DNA from: a virus
Taxonomy: Duplodnaviria; Caudoviricetes
Length of the DNA stretch: 61,199 nucleotides
IMG/VR virus record: IMGVR_UViG_3300032233_000543
Span: 1-61,199 of that record
Direction: 5' to 3' (one strand)
Under the pieces are notes generated by a model. It was not told where the DNA came from, did not search any database, and worked only from the letters and a program-made list of their open reading frames with translations. Below are positions 8,233 to 25,610 of the stretch, in pieces (the first letter of the stretch is position 1; the number at the start of each line of letters is the position of its first letter). A program made the translations under genes and the position numbers.

Positions 8233-8757
8233 ATGACAATGTTCACAAAAAACGTAGTTTCCGCAATTTACAATTCATTTGAGGGCGAAGCAAAGGCAAT
8301 TGCCAAAGCACGCGTCATTCAAGATCAAGCAATTCAACAAGCATTAGATGTTGTTACTTTGGTTTGCGATAAACCAAAGGCCGAATTCTTGAAAGGTAAT
8401 TCAAAAACGAATCTTGCACGCGGCGAAGTGAAAGCATTATTCGACGGCCTTGTTGAAAAGGGTTTCATTTCCAAGGCAACCGGCGCGCAATATCAATCTT
8501 GTTTTTGGATTGCTTTTGAAACCGGCGTCGAATTTTCCCGTGATCTTGCAAATAAGAAAAGTGACGCGAAAACCAAAAAAGACGCGTCCCCAAAATCCGG
8601 CCCCGTAATTTCGACAACCCGCGAATCATTGGACAAAACCCTAAGCAAAGCATTAGGTCAAGCACGCGCCCTTGGATTGACTGAATTCGCGGCGGAGATA
8701 TTAGACCTTTGCCTAGAATCATTGGACGGATTTCAAGAAACAGTACTTGACAAGTAA
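8233..8757 (+). CDS. First early gene, hypothetical protein
   Basis: 174-aa ORF with AAGGT RBS, its own promoter and its own terminator. Confidence 0.8.
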   Translation: MTMFTKNVVSAIYNSFEGEAKAIAKARVIQDQAIQQALDVVTLVCDKPKAEFLKGNSKTNLARGEVKALFDGLVEKGFISKATGAQYQSCFWIAFETGVEFSRDLANKKSDAKTKKDASPKSGPVISTTRESLDKTLSKALGQARALGLTEFAAEILDLCLESLDGFQETVLDK

Positions 8758-8775
8758 ACCCTAGGGTTTCCACCG

Positions 8776-8799
8776 AGCCACCGAAAGGTGGCTTTTTTT
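8776..8799 (+). terminator. Rho-independent terminator
   Basis: AGCCACC-GAAA-GGTGGCT followed by a T run. Confidence 0.9.
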
Positions 8800-9015
8800 C
8801 GTCCGTACTTTTCATGTGGGCGCTTATAGTATGCGTCCATAATGCGTCATAGTAGTCTGACCGTGCGGGAGAGCGAGTGCGCGAGCGCGTGCACGCGAAC
8901 GTGAGTGAGGGCTTCAGGGCGACCAAGCCACGGCAAAAACTTATAAGCTTAGAACTTTGCAGCTGGGGCATCGGGTTGGCAGGGCAACTATGACTTTCTC
9001 GGGGGACGGCATGCG

Positions 9016-9417
9016 TGTTACAATGTAACAAAAACAATCAATTTGTAACAAAACGCCTGTAACGCAATTAGTACGCGGAAATTAATACGATACGTTTCAA
9101 AAAACGCAGAGAGAGAGAGAGATTATATATTATTTATATATATGTTACATTGTAACGCCATTTTTGGAGAGCATCGGTCAAAATTCAAAATGTTAGAGTT
9201 CGTTATATGTTTGTCTTTGTGTCTATAACGAACTGTAAGGAAAATTATTTTGACTCGTGTTCCCCCAAAACCCCTGTTACAGTGTAACAACCCCAAAAAT
9301 ATACTCGGCTATATATAATTCCTAACCCTAAGTTGTTGTTTTCGTTGGAAACGCCTTATAGCACCCCCGTAACACCGCCTCTGTAACATCCACCACCCCT
9401 TTTGTAACATCGTAACA
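9016..9417. repeat. Iteron-like TGTAAC/GTTACA array, candidate replication origin
   Basis: Three TGTTACA-N-TGTAAC palindromes (9016, 9143, 9275) plus single copies at 9044, 9058, 9368, 9382, 9403 and 9411; (GA)n and AT-rich tract at about 9108-9142. Confidence 0.7.
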
Positions 9418-9489
9418 ACATCCCTATTGCATCCACCAACCCACCAAACTTATAATGTTATAACTTTCACCCAAACTTATAGGACAACT

Positions 9490-9948
9490 ATGACTCAAGA
9501 ACTCTACACTCTCGAACTCAACTTCCCCATGGATTTTGCCGACCGACTCGAAGCTTCCCACAACGACGGCATAAACGCTGCCACACAAGCCGCCATAAAA
9601 CTTTGGGTTGGGCTTGGCGACGACATCCGAGAAACCATCATCAAGCAAGCCAACAAAGAAGGACTATCCCGCGCCGAGTTCGTAGGCAAAGCTGTGAGCA
9701 AACTCATGAACCCCGAAGCCCCTGCCTATGTAAACCTGAACAATGGACTCACACTAGCTGAGCGCCGCGAAGCCCGCAACAAAGAAATCGTAGCCCGAGG
9801 ACTGCAGGGTATGCCACGCAAAGAGCTTGCCGCAATGTTTAAAGTCTCGGAAGTTCGTGTGCATCAGCTCATTGCACTGGGTAAAAAGGAATTATCGCGC
9901 CAAAAAATCCTCAACGATTGGCGCGGCGAGCCGGACGAAATAGCTTGA
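9490..9948 (+). CDS. DNA-binding regulator with RHH-like segment and C-terminal Mor/C-like HTH
   Basis: RNKEIV...GMPRKELAAMFKVSEVRVHQLI HTH; AGGA RBS before ATG 9490. Confidence 0.7.
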   Translation: MTQELYTLELNFPMDFADRLEASHNDGINAATQAAIKLWVGLGDDIRETIIKQANKEGLSRAEFVGKAVSKLMNPEAPAYVNLNNGLTLAERREARNKEIVARGLQGMPRKELAAMFKVSEVRVHQLIALGKKELSRQKILNDWRGEPDEIA

Positions 9949-9973
9949 CACAAAGCTATAATTCTGTTATAAT
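9945..9973 (+). promoter_or_regulatory. Consensus sigma70 promoter with extended -10
   Basis: TTGACA-N17-TATAAT with TGn directly before the -10. Confidence 0.92.
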
Positions 9974-9982
9974 TGATAACAT

Positions 9983-10072
9983 CAAGTCGAGTAACGCCTC
10001 GGCTTGTCACGCGCACCACCTACACCTCCGGTCGCATCGTTCTTTAATAATTTATCAGTTAGGTTTTTGTGT
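9983..10072 (+). promoter_or_regulatory. rrn-like antitermination leader (hairpin, boxA, boxC-like)
   Basis: Hairpin CAAGTCGAG/CTCGGCTTG at 9983-10006; CGTTCTTTAATAATTTATCAG at 10038-10058; TGTGT at 10068. Confidence 0.7.
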
Positions 10073-10109
10073 AAGTATTAGTGGGTCAAACTTCTAAGCT
10101 TATAACTTT

Positions 10110-10432
10110 GTAATACCTTCGAGCCGCCGCTGTCTAAATGGCAGAAGCCTGAAAGGATGCCTCGTGCAGTCCTCACTCGGTGAATAGGCGTTGGGTTCAG
10201 CCCCAGTATGTTGTGGTGTATTGAGTAGTGTGGCATGTGTCACCGAAAGAGATAGCAACATGCAATGCATACGCATACTACTTAAATGGGTGCAGTCCTC
10301 TGATGAGAAACGTCATGACTGCTAGGGATGTGGGACGGCATAGCCGGATAGATCACACCGACAAACCCTATCGTAGTCCAAAGATAATTTGTTTATCTTG
10401 TAGCCCTGCGGGTCAGGGCTATTGAATACACA
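10110..10432 (+). ncRNA. Candidate large structured non-coding RNA or leader
   Basis: No credible ORF; many nested stems containing G-U pairs. Confidence 0.5.
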
Positions 10433-10447
10433 AGGAGAGAAGACACC

Positions 10448-10675
10448 ATGGCAACATTGACATACTGGTATTGCTCAGCGGTCAGCAACAACGACTGTTA
10501 CAGCATCATTGCCAAGACCAAGAAAGAAGCGCATGCCAAACGCGAGGAGCACGGCACTAAGGATTACGAAGCGCCAATCAAAAAGACCTTGTACTACAAA
10601 GACGCATTCGATCTGTTCGACTGGGTAACCAGTGAGGGCGGAGGTCGTGGATGCGGTAGTACCGCCAAGCCCTAA
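10448..10675 (+). CDS. Hypothetical early protein
   Basis: AAGGAG RBS, 75 aa. Confidence 0.75.
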   Translation: MATLTYWYCSAVSNNDCYSIIAKTKKEAHAKREEHGTKDYEAPIKKTLYYKDAFDLFDWVTSEGGGRGCGSTAKP

Positions 10676-10693
10676 CCAACCAAGGAGAAAACC

Positions 10694-10906
10694 ATGACTC
10701 ACTACCACTTACCAATCTGCACATGCTGTTATGCCGTGAGGGTCGAACCCCAACGCAAGCACATGACACGACCCACATGCATGGCATGTGGTGAAAGCGA
10801 AGCACGCAAAGTAAAACACTGCGCCGTGCCTATGAACAAATCCAACTACATGTTGGTGACTGACAGGGCAACCCTGACGCAGCTCAACCCCAAACGAACG
10901 ATGTAA
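10694..10906 (+). CDS. Small zinc-finger protein
   Basis: CTCC...CMAC; AAGGAG RBS. Confidence 0.75.
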   Translation: MTHYHLPICTCCYAVRVEPQRKHMTRPTCMACGESEARKVKHCAVPMNKSNYMLVTDRATLTQLNPKRTM

Positions 10907-10956
10907 CTTACATCCAAACTTCTAACCTTATAACTTTAGATCTAAAGGAAACTATC

Positions 10957-11727
10957 ATGAGCATGTACACAACACTAATGATGCACTTGGCGAGGCACAT
11001 GTATAAGAAAGGCAGAAACAAGGGCGATGCCCCTGCCAACAAACACCGCAGAAGTATGACGCACTTTCGTGTGGTCAAGAACAACGACGGCACGATGGCT
11101 GTGCGAATGTTTGGCACGGACTTACTGAAGGCACACCCCGATGGTAGCGTGGTGATCGACACGGGTGGATGGTACGACAGACCGACAACTATCCTGCGAC
11201 TCAACGAAGCGTTTGGGTTCTTCGATGGGCTATCCGTTGCCATGCATAAACAATCCATACTCAGCTATTCGCAACCCGTACTACGCATAAACAATAAGCG
11301 CTTTTCTTACTACGACGGCATCACGCTTAACGAGCAGGGCGAGATCATCACCGAGTTGCGAGCGTTCGAGATGAAACGTATTGACAAGGCAGAGTCCAAA
11401 GAACTAGCCAACGACTTGCAAGAGTCAGGGTTCAAGGACGCGTACGCTTTGTTGTACGCCACGACAACACCCGAAGATAGGGGTGAGAACGACTACGCGT
11501 TGTTTGGTGAGAACATACCCGAGATGCTTGCCGATAGCGACAAAGCCGACAAGTGGAAGCTAATCATTGCAAGAAACAAATTCGAGCGTGTGTATTCATA
11601 TTCAAGTAGCACTCGTGGCTACGACTACACCGAGAAAGCAGATGCAAAAGCGTGTTGGGCATCCATCATGCAGTACTGCAAAAAGAACATGTATGTTGTG
11701 TCTCGCTCTGAGACATTCGTACTGTAA
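10957..11727 (+). CDS. Hypothetical early protein
   Basis: 256 aa, AAGGA RBS, follows a copy of the 22-bp motif. Confidence 0.8.
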   Translation: MSMYTTLMMHLARHMYKKGRNKGDAPANKHRRSMTHFRVVKNNDGTMAVRMFGTDLLKAHPDGSVVIDTGGWYDRPTTILRLNEAFGFFDGLSVAMHKQSILSYSQPVLRINNKRFSYYDGITLNEQGEIITELRAFEMKRIDKAESKELANDLQESGFKDAYALLYATTTPEDRGENDYALFGENIPEMLADSDKADKWKLIIARNKFERVYSYSSSTRGYDYTEKADAKACWASIMQYCKKNMYVVSRSETFVL

Positions 11728-11799
11728 GCGGGGCGCAAGCCTATTTAAGTAAACTTCTAACCTTAGAACTTCTAAACTTTTTAATCCAAGGAAATCAAA

Positions 11800-12867
11800 A
11801 TGAACTTGTCCGTAAACCTCAAGCAAGCCGCGACCCTCATCCGTAATGTGGGTACAACAAACACCATCCTACTGCGGGGTCAGCCCGGCGTAGGCAAATC
11901 GTCCATCCTTTCAACGCTAGGTCGTGAGATGCCTGACTATCAGGTGTGCTACATCGACTGTGCAAACTTAGACCTCGGTGACTTGGCGATGCCTGTCATT
12001 GACCGAGAGAACATGACCACATCCTACGCACCCAATGTGCGCTTCGGTGTAGGTAAGAATCAAACCCGACCCGTTATCCTAATGCTTGACGAGTTGGGTA
12101 AGGCGTCCCGCCCTGTGATGAACATGTTGTTGCCGACCATCCTCGAGCATCGAGTGGGTGATGTACCCCTGCCGACTGGCTCTATCGTATGTGCAACAAC
12201 CAACCTCGACACTGACGGCGTGGGTGACAACATCCCAGCTCACGCATACAACCGCATGACTGTGGTGAACCTAAGCAACCCAAGCGTAGAGCAGTGGCTC
12301 GAATGGGCGGCGGACAATGACATAGCCCCTGAAGTGATGGCGTTCGCCAAGCAATACCCGCAAGTGTTCGAGTGCTATGTTGACCTTGACCCCAAGGCTA
12401 AGAACCCGTACATCTTCAACCCACTGACAGGCAATGTGAAAGCATACTGCTCGCCTCGCTCGCTTGAGAAGGCATCCAACATTATCAAGATGCGTAACAT
12501 CCTCGGCGATGCAACCCTGCCTGCATTGGCGGGTACTGTGGGTGAACCTGCGGCGCGTGACATGGACGCACTCATTAACTTGGCAGATCAGTTGCCCCTG
12601 TTCGAGAACATTGTGAAAGACCCGTTCAAGGCCAAGGTGCCGACCAGTGCCGGTGCTCTGTTTATTCTCTCGTTCATGTTGGCCGGTCGTGTTGACGCTA
12701 AGACTATCGACGCTGTGATGGACTACGCAGATCGTATGGCTAACGAATCGTTCGAGGCACATGCGTTGTTTATCACATCGTTGGCATCCAACAAGTCCAA
12801 GGTAGGCATGGCATGCGGCAGTCGTAAGTTCACGGCGCAAGCTGCGAAGCTCGGCAAATTCTTCTAA
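11800..12867 (+). CDS. MoxR-like AAA+ ATPase
   Basis: Walker A GQPGVGKS, Walker B ILMLDE, sensor ATTN, NRM and SPRS. Confidence 0.9.
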   Translation: MNLSVNLKQAATLIRNVGTTNTILLRGQPGVGKSSILSTLGREMPDYQVCYIDCANLDLGDLAMPVIDRENMTTSYAPNVRFGVGKNQTRPVILMLDELGKASRPVMNMLLPTILEHRVGDVPLPTGSIVCATTNLDTDGVGDNIPAHAYNRMTVVNLSNPSVEQWLEWAADNDIAPEVMAFAKQYPQVFECYVDLDPKAKNPYIFNPLTGNVKAYCSPRSLEKASNIIKMRNILGDATLPALAGTVGEPAARDMDALINLADQLPLFENIVKDPFKAKVPTSAGALFILSFMLAGRVDAKTIDAVMDYADRMANESFEAHALFITSLASNKSKVGMACGSRKFTAQAAKLGKFF

Positions 12868-12879
12868 GGTTATAACTTT

Positions 12880-12969
12880 ATGTTCACACCATGGGAACGC
12901 TTCGAGCGCTTTATCTTAGTCCTAGCCATCATTGTGCTAGCCCTTGACCTTTATTACTGGAGACCGTGA
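12880..12969 (+). CDS. 29-aa membrane peptide (not in ORF track)
   Basis: MFTPWERFERFILVLAIIVLALDLYYWRP; one hydrophobic helix; stop overlaps the next start. Confidence 0.6.
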   Translation: MFTPWERFERFILVLAIIVLALDLYYWRP

Positions 12970-13148
12970 TGCTCATAACAGAACGCACAAGCGACGGTCG
13001 CACCATCGTGCGACTACACAAAGACTGGCACCCTGACCGTATCAGTAAGTCATACACACCACCACGCCCACGCTTTCACCTCTCGAAGGATGAGTGGGAC
13101 ATTCAAACAGGACTACTAAACAACCCAATCGTGAGGAAACAATCATGA
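12966..13148 (+). CDS. Hypothetical protein
   Basis: Translationally coupled on both sides. Confidence 0.6.
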   Translation: MMLITERTSDGRTIVRLHKDWHPDRISKSYTPPRPRFHLSKDEWDIQTGLLNNPIVRKQS

Positions 13149-13741
13149 GCAATATGTACGAACTCGCAAGACAACTGCAAGCCCCCGGTGTGCAGACAAT
13201 CGCAACCTTTAACCCAACTCGTTTGACTAAAACGATACGCAACATGACCCGCAAAAGTATTGCATCGGGCAACCACATCGGTGGGTGGTCAAGCAAGACT
13301 CGTGAGGTACGCAAGCTAATCTTTAGGTTGGCAGATGAGTACCCCATCGTGTATGTGTCGCAAGAAGCAGACTATGTAACCTTTCATATCCCACGCCCTA
13401 TCACTGCCGCCAATCAGTCCGAGATCATCGGGTTGTTTGAGGCGGACTGCACATTGCAGAAGATGGGGTACGACGATTCCGGTGAGCGCAGATACAAACC
13501 AACACGAGATGTGTTCAACAAAAATATTGACCAACGATGTGTAGAGAACATAACAAAAATAAAGTTTGCTGAGCAAGGTAAGGCGCGTCACATGGTCGTG
13601 CGTACAGCTAAGCTAAGGCAACAAATCGCTGAGGTATTCCTACGGGAACGCACAGTCGAGGAGATTGCCATAGCCGAGCGCATTGCACGAATACTAGATA
13701 GGGATGAGGAGTTCCCTATCCCGTCGTCACATAGCTTTTGA
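13145..13741 (+). CDS. Hypothetical protein
   Basis: GAGG RBS before ATG 13145; stop overlaps a 22-bp motif copy. Confidence 0.7.
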   Translation: MSNMYELARQLQAPGVQTIATFNPTRLTKTIRNMTRKSIASGNHIGGWSSKTREVRKLIFRLADEYPIVYVSQEADYVTFHIPRPITAANQSEIIGLFEADCTLQKMGYDDSGERRYKPTRDVFNKNIDQRCVENITKIKFAEQGKARHMVVRTAKLRQQIAEVFLRERTVEEIAIAERIARILDRDEEFPIPSSHSF

Positions 13742-13774
13742 AACTTATAACCTTATAACTTTTGGAGAAACATC

Positions 13775-14944
13775 ATGAATGTACAAGACCGAATCAAGAA
13801 GTCACACATCGCCATCATGCAACACAAAGTGTTCTGTGCGTTTGGCAGCATCCTTGCGTGCGGCAAGGTCAGAGTCAACGACGATGTACCCACTGCGGCT
13901 ACTAACGGGTGGGATGTGGTCTACAACCCCAACTTCATTGACCAATACATGAAGTCTGACCCCGAGCTACGCTTCCTAGTCTTACACGAGGCAATGCACA
14001 AAGCCTATCGTCACTTGCATGTGTGGGCGGCACTGCACGACGAGGACGCACGACTGGCCAACATTGCGGCAGACCACTTCGTTAACTTGTCATTGGTAGA
14101 TATGGACGCAGGCGAGGGGTTCGTCAAGATGCCTAGCGTTGGTGTTCAACCTGACACTAAGTATCGTGGATGGTCAGTCAAGCAGATCTTCGAAGCCCTC
14201 AAGCAAGAGCAAGAGGAAGGCGGCGAGGGCGGTGATGGTGATGGTGAGGGTATGGACGAGCATGATTGGGCTAACGCAACAAGCGGTGACCCCGCTACTG
14301 AGCAAGAACGCGCTAACGAAATCCAACGCGCTATCCGTCAAGGCGAGATCATTCGTCGCAAGATGGCGGGTAAGGGTGCGGGTGATTCGGATGGTGTGTT
14401 CGGTGAGTTGTTGCAACCCAAGATCGACTGGAAGAAAGTGTTGCGTGAGTTCATCACCGAGACATGCGCGGGTCGTGACGAGTCCTCGTGGCGTAAGCCT
14501 AATCGTAGGTTCATGAGCTACGACGTTTACATGCCCTCGATGATAGGCACAACTATGACGGAGTTGGTAATCGGCTTCGACACTTCCGGTTCGTGTTTCG
14601 GCGGCGAGGAGATGACTGCGTTCGTGTCAAACATCAAGACCATCATCGACGATGTTAAGCCAACCAAGACGCATGTGATCTATTGGGACACCGAGGTAGC
14701 AGGGCATCAGACATTCGAGGACGGACAGTTTGCAGTAGCCGACCTCAAACCCAAGGGCGGTGGTGGTACGGACGGCGCTGTGTTGTTTGACTACTTGCGT
14801 GACAACAACATCAACCCTCAAGCCATTGTGCAGTTTACCGACGGTTATGTAGGTGATTGGGGTAACACGAATGTGCCTACCTTGTGGGCTGTTACCTCTG
14901 ACTTAGTTGCGCCGTTCGGTACAACGATTCGTGTCGAAGTTTGA
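13775..14944 (+). CDS. HExxH metallopeptidase-like domain fused to vWA domain (DUF2201-like)
   Basis: PTAATNG, LHEAMH, MIDAS DTSGS, GGGGTD and FTDG motifs. Confidence 0.9.
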   Translation: MNVQDRIKKSHIAIMQHKVFCAFGSILACGKVRVNDDVPTAATNGWDVVYNPNFIDQYMKSDPELRFLVLHEAMHKAYRHLHVWAALHDEDARLANIAADHFVNLSLVDMDAGEGFVKMPSVGVQPDTKYRGWSVKQIFEALKQEQEEGGEGGDGDGEGMDEHDWANATSGDPATEQERANEIQRAIRQGEIIRRKMAGKGAGDSDGVFGELLQPKIDWKKVLREFITETCAGRDESSWRKPNRRFMSYDVYMPSMIGTTMTELVIGFDTSGSCFGGEEMTAFVSNIKTIIDDVKPTKTHVIYWDTEVAGHQTFEDGQFAVADLKPKGGGGTDGAVLFDYLRDNNINPQAIVQFTDGYVGDWGNTNVPTLWAVTSDLVAPFGTTIRVEV

Positions 14945-14976
14945 AACTTATAACCTTATAACTTTTGGAGAACATC

Positions 14977-15360
14977 ATGGGATACAGATCAGATGTGACG
15001 GCGCTCATCTACCCCGATGGGGGTGAGCATAGCGCTCTTAACTACGACAAACTCAAACTCTTAATGAACACCACATTCAAGGATGTGTTTGATGCGTGGG
15101 GCGGGGAGCGTGAGTTTAATGACGGGTGGGAGTGGAACGACAACGTGTTGGTATTGCAGTTTACCGCTACCTCGGTTAAGTGGTACGACTCGTACGCTGA
15201 TGTGGCTCGGTTCATTAGATTCTTGAGCGAGGTGCACGAGCTTGAGTATCAGTACGAGTTCATCCGACTTGGCGAGGACGCCGACGATATTGAAGAAGAT
15301 AGCACGGGCGATGCCAATAACTATCTGTCTATTAACCGTTCTGTGGAGGTGTCATTTTGA
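14977..15360 (+). CDS. Hypothetical acidic protein
   Basis: MGYRSDV start, VKWY and FIRLGED motifs; GGAG RBS. Confidence 0.75.
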   Translation: MGYRSDVTALIYPDGGEHSALNYDKLKLLMNTTFKDVFDAWGGEREFNDGWEWNDNVLVLQFTATSVKWYDSYADVARFIRFLSEVHELEYQYEFIRLGEDADDIEEDSTGDANNYLSINRSVEVSF

Positions 15361-15968
15361 AAACCGTAACTGCACAAGAATTGAAAGAGCTTGACCCCAA
15401 GCGTTTTGAGAAAGAGTACTACGCATGGATGGAGTACGCCGTGTACGACGATTGGGCTGACTGGATTAAGGAAGACTACATATCACAGATGCGGGTAGAG
15501 GGTATCAAGGTTGATAACTTCTATTGGGAAGTGTCGTACTCACAAAGTGACGGCGCGAACTTCGATGGGCATGTGATCGTGCATGAGTGGATGGAAGCTA
15601 ACCCGCAGTACATGGAGCAGTACCAAGCCTTGTACCTAGCGTGCAAACAGGACGGTAGCTACGTATCTGTACGCACAGATAGTCGTGGATACAACATGCA
15701 CTTCAACTTGAACGCATCATGGTGGGACACTGACCCATGCGGCATCTTCAATGGCTTAGACAAGGACACATGGGGTGAGTTGGTTGAAGACCAAGACAGT
15801 TCCGCAAGCCTAGAGAATGAAATCAAATCGACATGCGAAAGGTTCACGTCAGAGATGTACTACAAACTACGGGATGAGTATGAGCACGTCACTAGCGAGG
15901 AATCGTTTATTGATTCGTGCGAGTGCAACGAAATTACATTTGAACTAGAGGAAGAATATGAAGTTTAA
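15357..15968 (+). CDS. Hypothetical acidic protein
   Basis: YSQSDGANF and YYKLRDEYEH motifs; GGAGG RBS with TTG start. Confidence 0.7.
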   Translation: MKTVTAQELKELDPKRFEKEYYAWMEYAVYDDWADWIKEDYISQMRVEGIKVDNFYWEVSYSQSDGANFDGHVIVHEWMEANPQYMEQYQALYLACKQDGSYVSVRTDSRGYNMHFNLNASWWDTDPCGIFNGLDKDTWGELVEDQDSSASLENEIKSTCERFTSEMYYKLRDEYEHVTSEESFIDSCECNEITFELEEEYEV

Positions 15969-16245
15969 GATGACTGTGAATGGGCATCACATTTTGGTGG
16001 ATGCCAAGCAACTTGAGACTATCGTGGATACGCTGTCTTTTGCTGAACACCTAACTGAAATCCACGTGGGCAACAACCACGGGACGCAAGGGTATCAGAA
16101 CGCATACATGCCTGCGATTAAACCTATCGTGGGGCACGAGCTATTCCAAGTAGCGCCAGTTAGTCAAGACTTTATTGACACCATCAAGCTAGCCGCAAGG
16201 TTGGAAGATGAGACCAAGAAAATTGTATTGAACAGAAACTTATAA
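15958..16245 (+). CDS. Hypothetical protein
   Basis: GAGG RBS; stop lies inside a 22-bp motif copy. Confidence 0.7.
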   Translation: MKFKMTVNGHHILVDAKQLETIVDTLSFAEHLTEIHVGNNHGTQGYQNAYMPAIKPIVGHELFQVAPVSQDFIDTIKLAARLEDETKKIVLNRNL

Positions 16246-16268
16246 CCTTATAACTTTTGGAGAAACAA

Positions 16269-17195
16269 ATGAACTACTACACAACTGAAACACAAAAGCC
16301 TATTGCAGGTGTCGCTCGTTCCGCCATGATGGTGGACTTAAACATTGCAATCTACTCGGGTCGTAAGCAAGACAAGAGTACGCAAGCCGAGGTCACTAAC
16401 GCCAAGGGGTCAGGCTCCAAGAAAGCGGCATCGGTGTACAAGAACTTGTTTGCTGAGTGCAAAGAGTTAGACGCAATCACTAAGTTCCAAGCCCGTGCTC
16501 GAGCCGAGCATTACAAAATCACCCTCCCATGGAATGACCAAGGCGCAAGGCTTCTGCCCACTGCGGCTTTGCTCGACTACCAAAAGACAATGCAGCGTCA
16601 CAAAGATGAGTTCAATCGTTTGGTTGATGCGTTCTTGGACAAGTACGACACGCTCGTAGCAGGGGCGGCGTTCCAGCTTGGCACATTGTTTGACCGCAAC
16701 GAATACCCAAGCAGGGGTAAGGTAGCACAGCGCTTCCGTATGGAGACATCGTTCACTCCCTTGCCTACTGGCGGCGACTTTAGGTTAGACATTGAGAGCG
16801 AGGTACAGCGTGAGTTGGTCAAGCAGTACGAGGAGAAGCTCGACGCACAACTGGCGGCGGCTAACCAAGACTCATGGACTCGTTTGTATAACGCTATCAG
16901 TAAGTTGAGTGACCGCTTGACTGTGGATGAGGATGGCAAGAAGCGTACGTTCCACGATACAACGGTGACCAATGCGGTAGAGCTGTGCGAGTTGTTGCAT
17001 GTGATGAACATTACACAAGACCCGTCGTTGACGAAAGCTGCGCGTAAGCTTGCAGAAGTATTATCTGATGTAACACCTAAAGAATTGCGGGAAGAAGATA
17101 GCACTCGTGCTCTGACCAAGATCAAGGTGGACGAAATCCTTGGCGCATTTGATTGGGGGGTTGCAGATGGGGAAAGTGAAGGGACTAATGACTGA
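16269..17195 (+). CDS. DUF3150-like protein
   Basis: TLPW..GARLLP and LGTLFDRNEYP motifs; this family is usually linked to phage AAA/vWA pairs. Confidence 0.65.
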   Translation: MNYYTTETQKPIAGVARSAMMVDLNIAIYSGRKQDKSTQAEVTNAKGSGSKKAASVYKNLFAECKELDAITKFQARARAEHYKITLPWNDQGARLLPTAALLDYQKTMQRHKDEFNRLVDAFLDKYDTLVAGAAFQLGTLFDRNEYPSRGKVAQRFRMETSFTPLPTGGDFRLDIESEVQRELVKQYEEKLDAQLAAANQDSWTRLYNAISKLSDRLTVDEDGKKRTFHDTTVTNAVELCELLHVMNITQDPSLTKAARKLAEVLSDVTPKELREEDSTRALTKIKVDEILGAFDWGVADGESEGTND

Positions 17196-17517
17196 AATGA
17201 TGGATGAAACCGATACTCGTTTATCTGATGCACAACGCCAACTGGAGAACAAACTGGGGTACAACAAACAGGATGATATGTACGAATGCAGATACGAAGA
17301 ACGCAACGGTGACTACACGCTGAAGCAGTGGCGTGATGGACATGAGACGGCATCTCGTGGACTAGTACAAGACCTACCTGAATGGCTAGCAAACATCAGG
17401 GACGTGGCAATGGTGGGTGGGCATCTCAAGCGAGTGATGGTGCCTCCCCCTGACAACATCGTGTGGTTTACAACTGACGATGACGGAAACTTGATTAACT
17501 TTATGGAGCTTAAATGA
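17167..17517 (+). CDS. Hypothetical protein
   Basis: Fills the gap in the operon; start uncertain. Confidence 0.6.
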   Translation: MGKVKGLMTEMMDETDTRLSDAQRQLENKLGYNKQDDMYECRYEERNGDYTLKQWRDGHETASRGLVQDLPEWLANIRDVAMVGGHLKRVMVPPPDNIVWFTTDDDGNLINFMELK

Positions 17518-17690
17518 ATTATGACAACCTGACTGACGAAGAACTAATCCGATATGCCGATGGGCATTCGGGGTTAATCAAAGTTCTTTCTGAAAGGCTT
17601 GAGATGCGACTGCGTGACGTGCAAGACCTAGCGCACACCATGCCTGACCCACGACAACTTAACTTATTCGAGGATGATAAAGATGCCTGA
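17514..17690 (+). CDS. 58-aa protein with C-terminal QLNLF clamp-binding-like motif (not in ORF track)
   Basis: MNYDNLTDEELIRYA...DPRQLNLFEDDKDA; GGAG RBS and ATGA overlap. Confidence 0.7.
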   Translation: MNYDNLTDEELIRYADGHSGLIKVLSERLEMRLRDVQDLAHTMPDPRQLNLFEDDKDA

Positions 17691-18222
17691 CTTACAAACA
17701 GCAATGCAAAAGATATTGCAATCTTGGGAACAACCTGAAACAACTGAACCTACTAAGGAAACAACCGTGTTTACACCAACAACTAATACATCCCGCGCAA
17801 CATTTGAAATCGTACGCGACGACCCCGGCTTACTCACAATGCAGTACGTTCGTAAGCTAGAAGCTAGGGGGTACAAAAAGTCATCTACAACTTCTCTGCT
17901 TACTCAGATGCTCCGTCAAGGGCACATCCGTAAAGGCAGCGATGGCGGCTTGCATCCAAACCAAGCAGAGTACAGGCCGCTTAAGTCCACTACTACGCTG
18001 AAAAACAAGGCTAAGAAGGCGAAGCCTGTGAAAACTTCTAAGCTTAGAACTTCTGAAGCTCCTGCAGTATCACCTAACTATTTGGAAGACGCCAAACGCG
18101 CAATCATTGGTAAACGATCATATCGTACAAAGATACAAACCATCTTGGACGACATCAGCTTGAGCGATGCACACGAGTTGTATCGAGAACTGCATACGTA
18201 CTTCGGCGGCTTGCCTAAATGA
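17683..18222 (+). CDS. Putative winged-helix DNA-binding protein
   Basis: GYKKSSTTSLLTQMLRQGHI segment and basic linker. Confidence 0.6.
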   Translation: MPDLQTAMQKILQSWEQPETTEPTKETTVFTPTTNTSRATFEIVRDDPGLLTMQYVRKLEARGYKKSSTTSLLTQMLRQGHIRKGSDGGLHPNQAEYRPLKSTTTLKNKAKKAKPVKTSKLRTSEAPAVSPNYLEDAKRAIIGKRSYRTKIQTILDDISLSDAHELYRELHTYFGGLPK

Positions 18223-23556: not shown

Positions 23557-25116
23557 ATGCAAATTATTGACAACAAGGCATTGCTGTTTAATACACGCAA
23601 GGCACCACAGATTACTTCAATCATCCCTAAGAGCAAAGTGCTAGGTAGCAATGGTGACATTGACCAAGTGCTAGTCAACTGGGGTTTTGACGAAGTGCAA
23701 CTCCTACGCAATCTAGGTATTCGTGAAGTGCCTAGTCCTATTCTTGGTCGGTACGAGTGGCCCGGAATGTTTACACCCTTTGACCATCAGCGCACCACTG
23801 CGGAGTTTCTTACTCTGCATCCACGTTGCTTTGTGTTTAACGAAGCAGGCACAGGCAAGACAAGTGCGGCGGCATGGGCGGCTGACTACCTCATGAACCA
23901 AGGCAAAGTCAAGCGGGTGCTTGTTGTGTGCCCAGTGTCCATCATGGACACCGCATGGCGCTCTGATTTATTTAAGACAGTCATGCACCGCACAGTGGCG
24001 ATTGCGCAAGGCTCACGCACACAAAGACAGAAGGTCATCAGTGGCGACTACGAGTTCGTCATCATTAACTTCGATGGCGTAAAGGTTGTAAACAAAGAGT
24101 TGATAGCGGGTGGGTTTGATCTAATCATCGTCGACGAAGCCAATGCAGTTAAGAGTGTGCAGACAGACCGTTGGAAGTGCCTTGCCGCATTGGTTAAGCC
24201 TACTACACGCCTGTGGCTCATGACAGGTACGCCTGCATCGCAGTCGCCTCTAGACGCATACGGCTTGGCTAAGCTTGTGACACCTGACTCAGTGCCTAGA
24301 TTCTTTGGTGCGTTCCGTGACAAGGTGATGCTCAAGCTCACGCAGTACAAGTGGGTGCCAAGGCAAGACGCACAACAGATGGTTCACCAAGTATTGCAAC
24401 CCGCCATTAGGTTCACAAAGCTTGAGTGCTTGGACTTGCCTGACTTGTTGTACTCCACTCGTGAAGTCCCCTTGACGGCTCAGCAGGCTAAGTACTATGA
24501 CGCTTTGAAGAAGCAAATGATGACAATCGCAGCAGGCTCAGAAATCACGGCGGTAAATGCGGCAGCAATGCTTAACAAACTTTTGCAAGTTGCACAAGGT
24601 GCGGTATATACGGATGATGGGGGCGTTGTTGAGTTTGACGTAAACAATCGCATGAGTGAACTGCTCAATGTGATTGAGCAAACCGACCACAAAGTATTGG
24701 TGTTTATCCCATATCGACATACGCTTGAGATGGTGGAGAATGCTCTGCTCAAAGAAGGATATACAGTGCAGACAATTCATGGCGGCGTTGCTTCTACACG
24801 CCGAGCAGACATCATCAAACAATTCCAAACGGAAGACGACCCACGCATACTACTGCTAGTACCGCAGGCTACGGCTCACGGCATTACGCTAACTCGTGCA
24901 GACCAAGTAGTGTGGTGGGGTCCAGTAAGCTCCACAGAAATATATTTGCAAGCTAACTCACGGGCACACCGAGCAGGGCAGACAAACAAAGTTACAGTCA
25001 CCCACTTGCAAGGCAGTCCAGTCGAGCGGCGCATGTACACCATGCTGCAAAATAAAATAGATTTACATCAAAGTTTAGTTGATTTATACAAACAAGAGCT
25101 TGACACTGAAATTTGA
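23557..25116 (+). CDS. SNF2-family helicase
   Basis: EAGTGKT, IIVDEAN, MTGTP, HGITLT and QANSRAHRAGQ motifs. Confidence 0.93.
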   Translation: MQIIDNKALLFNTRKAPQITSIIPKSKVLGSNGDIDQVLVNWGFDEVQLLRNLGIREVPSPILGRYEWPGMFTPFDHQRTTAEFLTLHPRCFVFNEAGTGKTSAAAWAADYLMNQGKVKRVLVVCPVSIMDTAWRSDLFKTVMHRTVAIAQGSRTQRQKVISGDYEFVIINFDGVKVVNKELIAGGFDLIIVDEANAVKSVQTDRWKCLAALVKPTTRLWLMTGTPASQSPLDAYGLAKLVTPDSVPRFFGAFRDKVMLKLTQYKWVPRQDAQQMVHQVLQPAIRFTKLECLDLPDLLYSTREVPLTAQQAKYYDALKKQMMTIAAGSEITAVNAAAMLNKLLQVAQGAVYTDDGGVVEFDVNNRMSELLNVIEQTDHKVLVFIPYRHTLEMVENALLKEGYTVQTIHGGVASTRRADIIKQFQTEDDPRILLLVPQATAHGITLTRADQVVWWGPVSSTEIYLQANSRAHRAGQTNKVTVTHLQGSPVERRMYTMLQNKIDLHQSLVDLYKQELDTEI

Positions 25117-25127
25117 CAGTGTATAAT
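25100..25127 (+). promoter_or_regulatory. Sigma70 promoter overlapped by an inverted repeat
   Basis: TTGACA-N16-TATAAT; ACACTG-N8-CAGTGT spans the spacer. Confidence 0.75.
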
Positions 25128-25220
25128 TTCTAAAAAACGGGGGGAACGTCGCGCAATATTTTCTTGCGGACGAGCGGCTAGTACCCCCACCCAAGTTCAA
25201 CGTAAATCAAAAGGTATCGT

Positions 25221-25610
25221 ATGGATGCAAGCCAGTTAGTCAATGTGTATATCAAAATACGTGACGCCAAAGACATGAAGAAGCGCCAGATGGAAGAAGA
25301 GATTGCCGCACTCGATCAGCAACTTTCTGTCGTCGAGCAAGAGCTTTTAGAAATCTGCAAGACCACCGGCCAAGATGGTGGCAAAACACAACATGGCTCG
25401 TTTACACGAGCAGTCAAAACACGCTACTGGACCAGTGACTGGGACAGTATGTACAAATTCATCCGTGAGCATGATGCCCCTGACCTTCTCGAACGCCGGA
25501 TTGCGCAAGGTAACTTCGCACAGTTCGTCCAAGAGAACCCAGACAAAATGCCCGCAGGTGTGAATATCGAGTCGAAATACTCGATCACGGTTCGCCGTTC
25601 ATCTAAGTAA
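25221..25610 (+). CDS. Replication-module hypothetical protein
   Basis: N-terminal coiled coil, KTQHGSF, DWD and LLERRI motifs. Confidence 0.75.
   Translation: MDASQLVNVYIKIRDAKDMKKRQMEEEIAALDQQLSVVEQELLEICKTTGQDGGKTQHGSFTRAVKTRYWTSDWDSMYKFIREHDAPDLLERRIAQGNFAQFVQENPDKMPAGVNIESKYSITVRRSSK

What the first reader, a model, noticed from the sequence alone, without database searches (positions are those of the whole stretch)
10110..10432. Candidate ~320-nt structured non-coding RNA at the head of the early transcript
Seen: the segment has no credible ORF and is dense in stems. These include CGAG/CTCG enclosing CTGTC/GGCAG and a GAAA-capped hairpin; TTGAGTAGTGTG/CATACTACTTAA (12 bp with G-U pairs) enclosing GCATGT/ACATGC; GCAGTC/GACTGC; TAGGG/CCCTA enclosing CGGC/GCCG; AAGATAA/TTATCTT; and TAGCCCTG/CAGGGCTA. 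GTGCAGTCCTC occurs twice (about 10164 and 10290). G-U pairs on the plus strand favour selection at the RNA level. Inference: an abundant early RNA (decoy, anti-defence RNA or regulatory leader) transcribed under rRNA-like control. I do not recognise the family.
Basis: partly seen in the sequence, partly recalled or inferred. Interest (0 to 1): 0.75.

Follow-up and report, generated by a model that had tools for sequence, protein, structure and literature searches.

The report
Structured RNA leading phage early operon
The flagged stretch at the start of an uncultured phage's early genes encodes a conserved, folded non-coding RNA of a family not yet catalogued, made just behind a leader that copies the anti-termination signals of bacterial ribosomal RNA operons; what the RNA does is still unknown.

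Summary
Window 10110-10432 is one copy of a non-coding RNA family that I found in about 50 viral and metagenome contigs and in no Rfam 15 family. It was absent from two exact-pattern scans of 185,579 prokaryote genomes.

Covariation supports about ten helices. In the 3' domain 95.4% of cells pair against 76.8% in shuffles, and 23 of 33 pairs change on both sides. In the central domain the figures are 91.0% against 69.2%, and 15 of 19 pairs. A long-range helix and the first hairpin pair in 176 of 176 cells on an unfitted alignment. G-U pairs outnumber A-C 75 to 13, which places the RNA on the + strand.

No ORF is conserved. Folding energy is no better than shuffled sequence: z = -0.74 for the window, and mean -0.32 over 14 members.

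Upstream lie a perfect sigma-70 promoter, a covarying boxB-like hairpin, an exact boxA consensus and a boxC-like block. The function is unknown. My best guess is a stand-alone immediate-early RNA that binds a partner; the main rival is a cis-acting operon leader.

The parts
9945..9973 (+). Consensus sigma-70 promoter: TTGACA, 17 nt, TATAAT, with TG upstream of the -10. The transcript start is inferred at about 9980.
   Evidence: Scores 12 of 12 in the scan. It is one of only 2 perfect matches in 61 kb, where 0.02 are expected. A TTGACA..TAYAAT promoter lies 309-572 nt upstream of the conserved block in 36 of 40 copies; the other 4 loci have under 500 nt upstream of the block.
9973..9985 (.). 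Palindrome that overlaps the -10 and the inferred start; a candidate operator at the DNA level.
   Evidence: Seen in the sequence. In L033, L035 and L042 both halves are changed together (alignment). Not tested further.
9984..10005 (+). boxB-like hairpin: 8-bp stem with a 6-nt loop.
   Evidence: The six inner pairs were counted: 96.0% of cells pair against 82.4% in shuffles, and 4 of 6 pairs change on both sides, on a MAFFT alignment of 23 leaders.
10039..10049 (+). boxA: exact match to the published consensus GYTCTTTAANA.
   Evidence: There are 2 matches in the window, this one and a stray one at 34945, where 0.37 are expected. The consensus comes from a passage of PMC5725501. An exact match is present in 45 of the 61 loci held; where I checked positions (window, L046, L047, L051, L053, L054, L055, L058) it lies upstream of the RNA.
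10066..10075 (+). boxC-like block, part of the nearly invariant stretch 10059-10073.
   Evidence: 7 of 10 letters match the boxC string printed in PMC10250234. It lies 16 nt after boxA, against 18-19 nt in Enterobacteriaceae. It is conserved in most leaders. A pairing with a trailer is not supported.
10089..10109 (+). 21-nt near-palindromic motif that also precedes the early genes.
   Evidence: The search gave 12 matches at up to 3 mismatches, which are 10 sites since two palindromic sites match on both strands. All lie in 8937-18053; 0 are expected by chance. At 13742, 14945 and 16237 the motif sits directly 5' of the Shine-Dalgarno sequence. Relatives carry lineage-specific versions on both sides of the RNA.
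10125..10190 (+). Domain 1. It is closed by a long-range 4-bp helix (10125-10128 with 10187-10190) and holds hairpin 10130-10134/10140-10144 and a variable interior. The interior is 59 nt here and about 100 or 245 nt in relatives.
   Evidence: 176 of 176 cells pair on an unfitted alignment of 22 sequences. The closing helix shows G-C to A-U in 4 sequences and U-A to C-G in 5.
10191..10206 (+). Hairpin with a T-loop-like loop (10191-10195 with 10202-10206).
   Evidence: The four inner pairs were counted: 100% of cells pair and 3 of 4 pairs change on both sides (helix 1).
10206..10263 (+). Central helix 10206-10214 with 10255-10263. In most relatives it encloses a 5-bp variable helix and a conserved loop. 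In the window that inner helix is missing; it is replaced by 10221-10229, which is complementary to 10277-10285, and by a small hairpin at 10229-10242.
   Evidence: 94.7% of cells pair and 6 of 9 pairs change on both sides (helix 2). The inner helix pairs in 74.8% of cells, with 6 of 6 pairs changed on both sides, but is absent in the window and L024.
10264..10293 (+). Nearly invariant stretch with no pairing that is conserved across the family. It is the most conserved part of the family.
   Evidence: Invariant columns. It served as the search pattern that found 18 viral and 21 metagenome loci.
10292..10322 (+). Two-part hairpin: outer stem 10292-10297/10317-10322 and inner stem 10301-10305/10311-10315, with a 5-nt loop.
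   Evidence: The outer stem pairs in 98.3% of cells. All 7 pairs of the inner stem change on both sides (helices 1-3). In L024 the 5' arm and its partner changed together while the upstream 11-mer copy did not.
10325..10368 (+). Three stacked helices: 10325-10327/10366-10368, 10329-10332/10354-10357 and 10336-10339/10343-10346. Conserved asymmetric internal loops lie between them.
   Evidence: Cells pair at 94.0%, 100% and 97.7%. 3 of 4 and 5 of 5 pairs change on both sides in the inner two helices. The same holds on an unfitted alignment (helices 6-8).
10368..10376 (+). Invariant 9-mer that ends the conserved core.
   Evidence: Invariant. A pattern built on it found 27 viral loci, 13 of them new.
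10381..10421 (+). Two 3' hairpins, 10381-10387/10393-10399 and 10401-10408/10414-10421. Only some relatives have them; others carry a different set of 3' hairpins.
   Evidence: The second hairpin shows swapped G and C runs in L012, L015, L024, L049, L051 and L057. The first is conserved without compensatory change. No U-run follows, and the scan called no terminator here.
10432..10450 (+). Shine-Dalgarno sequence and start codon of the 75-aa ORF 10448-10675. This marks the end of the untranslated stretch.
   Evidence: The ORF is absent from the closest relatives L002 and L006, where the RNA abuts the homologue of ORF 10694-10906.

Best explanation
Window 10110-10432 is one copy of an uncatalogued family of phage-encoded structured RNAs. 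The conserved core runs from about 10118 to 10379 and is followed by two 3' hairpins that end at 10421.

Shown by the sequences:
- The RNA lies on the + strand, about 140 nt downstream of a perfect sigma-70 promoter.
- It follows a leader with a covarying boxB-like hairpin, an exact boxA and a boxC-like block, in the order of bacterial rrn operons.
- It folds into three domains of short helices (3 to 9 bp), separated by nearly invariant unpaired stretches. Expansion segments differ between lineages.
- No ORF is conserved.
- No terminator follows, so the RNA is the first about 470 nt of the early operon transcript.

Inferred:
- Host RNA polymerase starts at about 9980.
- boxA recruits host NusB and NusE with the other Nus factors. 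Transcription therefore resists Rho across the long untranslated RNA and on into the early genes, as at rRNA operons and at boxA-led CRISPR arrays.
- The RNA acts as a unit of its own, not as a switch for one gene. Its invariant single-stranded stretches and internal loops bind a host or phage partner (a protein or another RNA) in the first minutes of infection, as a scaffold or decoy. It may act after being cut out of the transcript.

Which partner it binds, and whether it is cut out, are unknown.
For: Family and conservation:
- 5 loci were found through the neighbouring 256-aa protein, and they keep the non-coding stretch at 70-80% nucleotide identity.
- Pattern scans found 18 viral and 21 metagenome loci and 13 more viral loci.
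- These give 27 distinct cores, and pairwise identity is 46-99% among the 26 full-length regions compared.
- Model R1, built without the window's subgroup, finds the window at 70 bits, E = 1.4e-15. It hits all 32 sources given; 8 duplicate or near-duplicate loci were not given. It also hits 12 of the 13 later loci.
- Model R2 hits 32 of 32 sources and 11 of 13 later loci.

Structure:
- 95.4% of cells pair against 76.8% in shuffles; 23 of 33 pairs and 126 cells change on both sides, against 33.9 cells in shuffles; slid controls pair at 25-39%.
- 91.0% against 69.2%; 15 of 19 pairs.
- Unfitted alignments agree: 176 of 176 cells; 94.0% against 88.0%; 32 cells against 11.1.

Strand: 75 G-U cells against 13 A-C cells out of 1290.

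Not coding.

Not a catalogued RNA: no Rfam hit in the window or in 10 relatives; no tRNA or tmRNA.

Leader:
- Promoter.
- boxA is exact and present in 45 of 61 loci.
- boxB-like hairpin covaries.
- The published consensus and the rrn order come from passages of PMC5725501 and PMC10250234.
- The stretch from boxA onward matches the rrnB boxA primer printed in PMC2176067 at 18 of 21 letters (my count).
- boxA upstream of untranslated CRISPR arrays is discussed as a block to Rho-dependent termination in a passage of PMC7862264.

A unit of its own: the first gene downstream is of at least 8 different kinds among the relatives, while the promoter, leader and RNA stay the same.

RNA libraries: contigs from two studies hold the core, 10159-10341 with no mismatch and 10157-10359 from a relative.
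Against: - Folding energy is no better than shuffled sequence in the window and across 14 members, so thermodynamics gives no support.
- Two of the pair counts come from alignments fitted to the model. The sequences are related, and both facts inflate such counts, as the tool itself warns.
- No partner, processing site or mature end has been shown.
- The RNA-library contigs are short (151-209 nt) and shallow (depth 4-5), and such libraries can hold DNA.
- boxC matches only 7 of 10 letters, at a spacing 2-3 nt shorter than in Enterobacteriaceae, and no leader-trailer helix is supported.
- The host is unknown, so it is an assumption that it uses this boxA consensus.
- The position, with no terminator and read-through into the early genes, fits a cis-acting leader equally well.
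- Cultured distant relatives (Phage DSL-LC04, Pelagibacter phage HTVC023P, phage 023Pt_psg01) gave no R2 match, so no isolate is at hand.
Confidence: 0.5

Rival explanations
1. The RNA is a cis-acting leader of the early operon. It works only on its own transcript. Possible modes: it modifies the transcribing polymerase for processive anti-termination beyond what boxA gives, it protects the 5' end of the long early mRNA from decay, or it sets the translation of the first genes.
For: It lies between the promoter and the first early gene, with no terminator. In the window its 3' end is 11 nt from a Shine-Dalgarno sequence. It always travels with the promoter and leader. It carries Nus-type signals, which act in cis.
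Against: boxA alone is described as sufficient for forming the anti-termination complex (passage of PMC10250234), so a further 260-560 nt of conserved fold would need another reason. The first downstream gene varies. In most relatives a separate motif and hairpins lie between the RNA and the next ribosome-binding site, so no conserved expression platform exists.
Confidence: 0.3
2. The RNA is a self-cleaving or self-processing ribozyme, or a dedicated RNase substrate that punctuates the early transcript.
For: It has invariant unpaired nucleotides around multi-helix junctions. RNA-library contigs from two studies begin within 2 nt of each other, at 10157 and 10159, which the tool rates as a weak hint at most.
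Against: There is no match to any ribozyme family in Rfam 15, even at E up to 10. The CUGAUGA-like string at 10299-10305 is not conserved in relatives. Contig ends in mixed populations often reflect strain variation.
Confidence: 0.07
3. The conservation reflects a DNA-level element, such as a replication origin, a packaging site or a cluster of protein-binding sites, and not an RNA.
For: Palindromic DNA motifs flank the region. A set of four spaced palindromes lies 700-1100 bp upstream.
Against: The compensatory changes keep Watson-Crick and G-U pairs on the + strand only, with 75 G-U cells against 13 A-C. The helices are short, nested and separated by lineage-specific insertions, a pattern that protein-binding sites in DNA would not be expected to give.
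Confidence: 0.04
4. The region encodes a small protein, and that explains its conservation.
For: The window has + strand ORFs of 44 and 65 aa. A 46-aa ORF is intact in 13 of 27 distinct relatives.
Against: That ORF is cut to 5-25 aa in 14 of 27 relatives, including the window. The window's own ORFs are interrupted in L015 and L024. The ATG in the conserved block is not preceded by a Shine-Dalgarno sequence. Insertions of about 40 to 250 nt fall between the conserved blocks.
Confidence: 0.02

Closest known systems
Leader of bacterial rRNA (rrn) operons: boxB, boxA and boxC, which assemble the Nus-factor anti-termination complex (rrnTAC)
   Same: The order is boxB-like hairpin, boxA, then boxC-like block, directly after a strong sigma-70 promoter. 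boxA matches the published consensus exactly. The letters after boxA also resemble the E. coli rrnB leader as printed in a primer. The leader sits ahead of a long untranslated structured RNA.
   Different: It is in a phage and ahead of an RNA of about 330-600 nt that is unrelated to rRNA. boxC matches only 7 of 10 letters, at 16-nt rather than 18-19-nt spacing. No leader-trailer helix is supported. Protein genes follow on the same transcript.
boxA elements upstream of CRISPR arrays and of suhB (Nus-factor targets outside rRNA)
   Same: A boxA is placed ahead of RNA that is not translated, where Rho would otherwise terminate (passage of PMC7862264; PMC5725501).
   Different: Those are cellular loci without an accompanying large fold. 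Here boxA comes with boxB-like and boxC-like elements and a conserved structured RNA.
Lambda nut sites and HK022 put RNAs (early-operon anti-termination elements of phages; recalled from general knowledge apart from the nut description)
   Same: These are RNA elements just downstream of early promoters that make the polymerase resistant to terminators. nut sites use boxA and boxB with the host Nus factors.
   Different: As I recall it, lambda has boxA before boxB, and by the passage its anti-termination uses the phage N protein bound at boxB. Here the order is the rrn order, and no N-like protein was identified (I did not search for one). put RNAs are two stem-loops of about 70 nt, as I recall them; this RNA is several times larger.
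Large orphan structured RNAs linked to phages, such as GOLLD and ROOL (recalled; both families are in Rfam)
   Same: They are large multi-domain RNAs, conserved with covariation, found in phage or prophage DNA, with unknown function.
   Different: No sequence or structure match to them or to any other Rfam family. This RNA is smaller and has a fixed place at the head of the early operon.
Candidate structured RNAs predicted from IMG/VR intergenic regions (Fremin, Bhatt and Kyrpides 2023, PMC10690425)
   Same: That screen used the same kind of source (IMG/VR viral contigs) and the same kind of evidence (covariation). It reports 8495 novel candidates (abstract and passages).
   Different: The main text does not describe an RNA behind an rrn-like leader: a word search of the text for 'antitermination' and 'promoter' found none.

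Membership tests
rrn-type anti-termination leader (boxB-boxA-boxC) | boxA matching the consensus GYTCTTTAANA | tested here: met
   Exact match at 10039-10049. The consensus is from a passage of PMC5725501. It is present in 45 of 61 loci.
rrn-type anti-termination leader (boxB-boxA-boxC) | Order boxB, boxA, boxC from 5' to 3', just after the promoter, with boxB a stem-loop | tested here: met
   Hairpin at 9984-10005, boxA at 10039-10049, boxC-like block at 10066-10075, all after the promoter at 9945-9973. The hairpin covaries. The order is as described in PMC10250234.
rrn-type anti-termination leader (boxB-boxA-boxC) | boxC sequence (UCUGUGUGGG) 18-19 nt after boxA | tested here: inconclusive
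   7 of 10 letters match, at 16-nt spacing. The published figures are for Enterobacteriaceae, and the host here is unknown.
rrn-type anti-termination leader (boxB-boxA-boxC) | boxC pairs with a trailer to form a leader-trailer helix around the mature RNA | tested here: not met
   The best duplex partner of the leader differs from sequence to sequence. L054 keeps the trailer but has a different leader. There is no compensatory change.
rrn-type anti-termination leader (boxB-boxA-boxC) | Binding of NusB and NusE, and resistance to Rho | not testable with these tools
   Needs biochemistry or genetics.
Any Rfam 15 family (4227 models) | Covariance-model score at or above the family threshold | tested here: not met
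   0 matches in the whole window at gathering scores. At E up to 10, region 9900-10500 gave only two chance-level hits. 9 relatives gave one unrelated hit outside the RNA. L009 gave none.
tRNA or tmRNA | Cloverleaf or tRNA-like domain found by ARAGORN | tested here: not met
   0 genes in the window and 0 in 12 relatives. One hairpin loop merely resembles a T-loop.
Riboswitch or gene-specific cis-regulatory leader | A constant downstream gene family, with an expression platform (terminator or sequestered ribosome-binding site) | tested here: not met
   There are at least 8 kinds of first downstream gene. The scan called no terminator on the + strand within 10110-10432. The 3' hairpins differ between groups of relatives.
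Small protein gene | An ORF kept open across relatives | tested here: not met
   the best candidate is broken in 14 of 27 relatives.

The most novel reading that the evidence does not exclude
A clade of uncultured phages hijacks the host's ribosomal anti-termination and RNA-chaperone complex to make and fold a large immediate-early RNA before any phage protein exists. This RNA, of a family with no known relatives, acts by itself or as a ribonucleoprotein in the first minutes of infection. It might sequester a host defence or gene-expression factor. On this reading the invariant single-stranded stretches are the binding surface, and the lineage-specific expansion segments track different hosts.
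Probability: 0.25. Interest if true: 0.85.

Novelty: new variant of a known kind. Interest (0 to 1): 0.7.

Why it matters
Large structured RNAs with conserved folds are rare in phages, and most phage early functions are assigned to proteins. This one is the very first thing transcribed from one of only two perfect host-type promoters in the genome. It also sits behind a copy of the signals that cells reserve for rRNA.

If the leader works as it does in rrn operons, this would be a case of a phage using the host ribosomal anti-termination complex without an identified N-type protein, and for an RNA product. I found no such case in the searches named in this report.

The RNA is short enough, and has enough natural variants (about 30 distinct sequences with modular expansions), to be directly testable by probing, pull-down and deletion. 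The finding also gives a concrete handle, in the two covariance models and the conserved blocks, for finding the family in freshwater-type viromes and metatranscriptomes.

Tried and rejected
- **Thermodynamic test.** No signal.
- **Rfam.** Nothing at gathering or E-value thresholds in the window or in 10 relatives.
- **tRNA or tmRNA.** None.
- **Cultured-phage collection.** blastn of 9900-10500 and tblastn of the neighbouring 256-aa protein gave no match. The large terminase subunit is 42-45% identical to those of Pelagibacter phages HTVC023P and HTVC027P and Phage DSL-LC04. Model R2 finds nothing in HTVC023P, DSL-LC04 or phage 023Pt_psg01; the tool notes that an empty answer shows little.
- **E. 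coli genomes with the leader.** One chance hit, none at rrn operons, so I took the rrn comparison from papers instead.
- **Prokaryote genomes.** Two exact-pattern scans found 0. These detect only exact matches to conserved blocks.
- **Leader-trailer helix, as in rRNA.** Rejected.
- **Pairing of the boxC-like leader with the invariant block 10264-10293.** Complementary in many members, but both sides are invariant, and divergent members (L026, L030, L034) lack it. Left open.
- **Hammerhead-like string at 10299-10310.** Not conserved.
- **The 11-mer repeat as an alternative pairing partner.** In L024 only the local partner changed in step, so local pairing is what is kept.
- **Antisense targets of the invariant blocks within the phage genome.** Only chance-length matches of 9-12 nt.
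- **RNA-library coverage.** In runs X15 and X19 nothing was laid on the flanking coding parts of 9700-10900. Run X18 is probably DNA.
- **The search of earlier findings.** Closed.
- **Supplementary tables of PMC10690425.** These could list this family, but they are closed.
- **Literature word searches.** Searches on boxA plus phage plus leader, on structured phage RNAs, and on the conserved strings found no description of this RNA.
Full report
**Setting.** The window is a whole virus record of 61,199 bp, about 96% complete. It is a tailed-phage genome. A large terminase subunit, a portal protein and tail-fibre genes lie on the minus strand. A plus-strand block from about 8.2 to 29.7 kb holds an AAA ATPase, a DUF2201 protein, a DNA polymerase, a helicase and a primase. 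The nearest cultured phages by terminase are Pelagibacter phages HTVC023P and HTVC027P and the lake phage DSL-LC04, at 42-45% amino-acid identity.

The flagged stretch lies in a 499-nt gap without a credible gene. The gap runs from the end of a 152-aa protein with a weak sigma-70 region 4-like helix-turn-helix (9490-9948) to a 75-aa ORF that starts at 10448.

**The observation.** By folding energy, though, the region is ordinary. For the plus strand z = -0.74, and 21 of 100 shuffles fold as well. For the minus strand z = -0.57. Fourteen family members give a mean z of -0.32. The other two are not, as shown below.

**Relatives.** The cultured-phage collection gave nothing. The neighbouring 256-aa protein led to five viral contigs that keep the non-coding stretch at about 70-80% nucleotide identity. 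That is about as well kept as the flanking genes.

A pattern from the most conserved block found 18 viral and 21 metagenome loci. A pattern from the block that ends the core found 13 further viral loci. Two exact-pattern scans of one genome from each of 185,579 prokaryote species found none. After removing duplicates there are 27 distinct cores, and the 26 full-length regions compared are 46-99% identical to one another.

The family has four nearly invariant blocks. The segments between them come in discrete sizes: 59, about 100 or about 245 nt; 90 or 127 nt; and 95, 145 or about 200 nt. The window carries the shortest form.

**Structure.** I wrote helices from the alignments and tested them in two ways.

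The first way used plain MAFFT alignments that were not fitted to any structure:
- A long-range 4-bp helix (10125-10128 with 10187-10190) and the first hairpin pair in 176 of 176 cells. The long-range helix switches G-C to A-U in 4 sequences and U-A to C-G in 5.
- The 3' domain of 16 longer relatives pairs in 94.0% of cells against 88.0% in shuffles, with 32 doubly changed cells against 11.1.

The second way used two covariance models:
- R1 covers the 3' domain and was built without the window's subgroup. It finds the window at 70 bits (E = 1.4e-15) and hits all 32 sources given. On its alignment 95.4% of cells pair against 76.8% in shuffles, and 23 of 33 pairs change on both sides. Sliding the partner by 1-3 columns drops pairing to 25-39%.
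- R2 covers the central domain. It gives 91.0% against 69.2%, and 15 of 19 pairs change on both sides.
- Both models also hit 11-12 of the 13 later loci.

These two alignments are fitted to the models, and the sequences are related. Both facts inflate such counts. The unfitted counts point the same way.

G-U pairs outnumber A-C mismatches by 75 to 13 among 1290 cells. The fold is therefore read on the plus strand, which is the direction of the early genes.

- Five are confirmed by compensatory change: the first hairpin, the GCAGTC/GACTGC stem, the GGG/CCC and CGGC/GCCG stems, and the last 3' hairpin.
- One, AAGATAA/TTATCTT, is conserved without compensatory change.
- CGAG/CTCG is not kept in the closest relatives.
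- GCATGT/ACATGC is replaced by a covarying 9-bp helix, 10206-10214 with 10255-10263. For example, one relative has both arms rewritten together.
- The 12-bp stem is real only in a subgroup. Most relatives carry there a 5-bp helix that covaries strongly and caps a conserved loop. The window, L024, L051 and L057 lack that helix. They carry instead a stretch complementary to the invariant block, and L046 and the L009 group carry a shorter one. That stretch would form a pseudoknot across the 9-bp helix.
- The exact 11-mer repeat is real. In L024 only the second copy and its local partner changed together, so selection is on the local hairpin.

**Not coding.** The window's 44-aa and 65-aa ORFs are interrupted in close relatives. 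One ORF runs from an ATG inside the invariant block to the TAG of the closing 9-mer. It is open (46 aa) in 13 of 27 distinct sequences, but frameshifts or stops cut it to 5-25 aa in 14 of 27, including the window. It has no ribosome-binding site.

**Not a catalogued RNA.** No Rfam 15 model reaches its threshold anywhere in the window. E-value searches of the region, of nine relatives and of a long-form relative give only chance-level or unrelated hits. ARAGORN finds no tRNA or tmRNA.

A large screen of IMG/VR for structured RNAs exists (PMC10690425; I read the abstract and some passages). Word searches of the paper library found no description of it.

**The leader.**
- The promoter at 9945-9973 scores 12 of 12. 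It is one of two perfect matches in the genome. A like promoter precedes 36 of 40 copies; the other 4 loci have under 500 nt upstream of the conserved block.
- From the inferred start near 9980 the transcript opens with a hairpin whose stem covaries: 96.0% of cells pair, and 4 of 6 pairs change on both sides. Many relatives have a second hairpin after it.
- Next comes an exact match to the published boxA consensus at 10039-10049. An exact match is present in 45 of the 61 loci held.
- Then follows a nearly invariant stretch that includes a 7-of-10 match to boxC, 16 nt after boxA.
- The order boxB, boxA, boxC is that of rrn operons. The letters after boxA also follow the E. coli rrnB leader as printed in a primer.

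I infer, but cannot show, that the leader loads the host Nus factors. That would protect about 470 nt of untranslated RNA from Rho, as discussed for boxA-led CRISPR arrays. A leader-trailer helix like that of rRNA is not supported.

**Function.** No terminator follows the RNA, so it is the 5' part of the early operon transcript. Three observations favour a unit of its own over a gene-specific switch:
- The first downstream gene is of at least eight kinds, while promoter, leader and RNA stay the same.
- In most relatives the RNA occupies a slot bounded by the same near-palindromic motif that precedes each early gene.
- The best-kept parts are unpaired stretches and asymmetric internal loops, as expected for binding surfaces.

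RNA libraries of two studies hold short contigs of the core, one identical to the window over 10159-10341. This shows presence in such libraries, not abundance or ends.

I therefore put about 0.5 on a stand-alone immediate-early RNA that binds a partner, and about 0.3 on a purely cis-acting operon leader. The remainder is spread over a ribozyme or processing element, a DNA-level element, a small protein and chance.

**Verdict.** This is a real, conserved, plus-strand structured RNA of an uncatalogued family, with an rrn-style leader.

Noticed in passing
window 8937-18053 (sites at 8938, 9447, 10089, 10917, 11752, 12859, 13742, 14945, 16237, 18033): A 21-nt near-palindromic motif occurs at 10 sites, where 0 are expected by chance. 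All sites lie in the early plus-strand region, mostly directly 5' of the ribosome-binding site of a gene. Related phages carry their own versions in which both half-sites changed together. It could be an operator for a dimeric regulator, a phage-specific promoter or an RNA processing signal.
   Followed up: partly
window 9016-9418: Four copies of a 16-nt palindrome are spaced 127, 132 and 128 nt apart, inside a second gene-free stretch (about 8800-9426) just upstream of the helix-turn-helix gene (family D3). The pattern looks like iterons or operators.
   Followed up: no
window 9973-9985: A palindrome overlaps the -10 element and the inferred start of the early promoter. In L033, L035 and L042 both halves are replaced together. 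It is a candidate repressor site for early shut-off.
   Followed up: no
window 25100-25220: This is the only other perfect sigma-70 consensus promoter in the genome. It is followed by a 5' leader of about 90 nt with a G-run and a C-run that could pair, ahead of ORF 25221-25610.
   Followed up: no
window 10448-10675: The 75-aa ORF directly after the RNA is missing from the closest relatives (L002, L006), where the RNA abuts the homologue of the Cys-rich 70-aa ORF 10694-10906. This is an insertion or deletion of one small early gene.
   Followed up: partly
L009 2654-2807, also L021 and L042: These relatives carry an extra insertion of about 37 nt in the central domain. Two of its short motifs reminded me of the loop E region of 5S rRNA. 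That is recall only; Rfam gave no 5S match.
   Followed up: partly
L008, L009, L011, L016 and others (3' domain): A 46-aa ORF spans the 3' domain in 13 of 27 distinct relatives and ends at the invariant closing 9-mer. It is most likely a by-product of sequence conservation, because frameshifts break it in the other relatives.
   Followed up: yes
window 8775-8794: A strong terminator-like hairpin with a T-run lies right after ORF 8233-8757. That gene therefore appears to be a transcription unit separate from the operon that the RNA heads.
   Followed up: no
window 34945-34955: A second exact boxA-consensus match lies on the plus strand, inside the region occupied by the 2079-aa minus-strand ORF. 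It is most likely chance: 8 of 100 shuffles give two matches.
   Followed up: no
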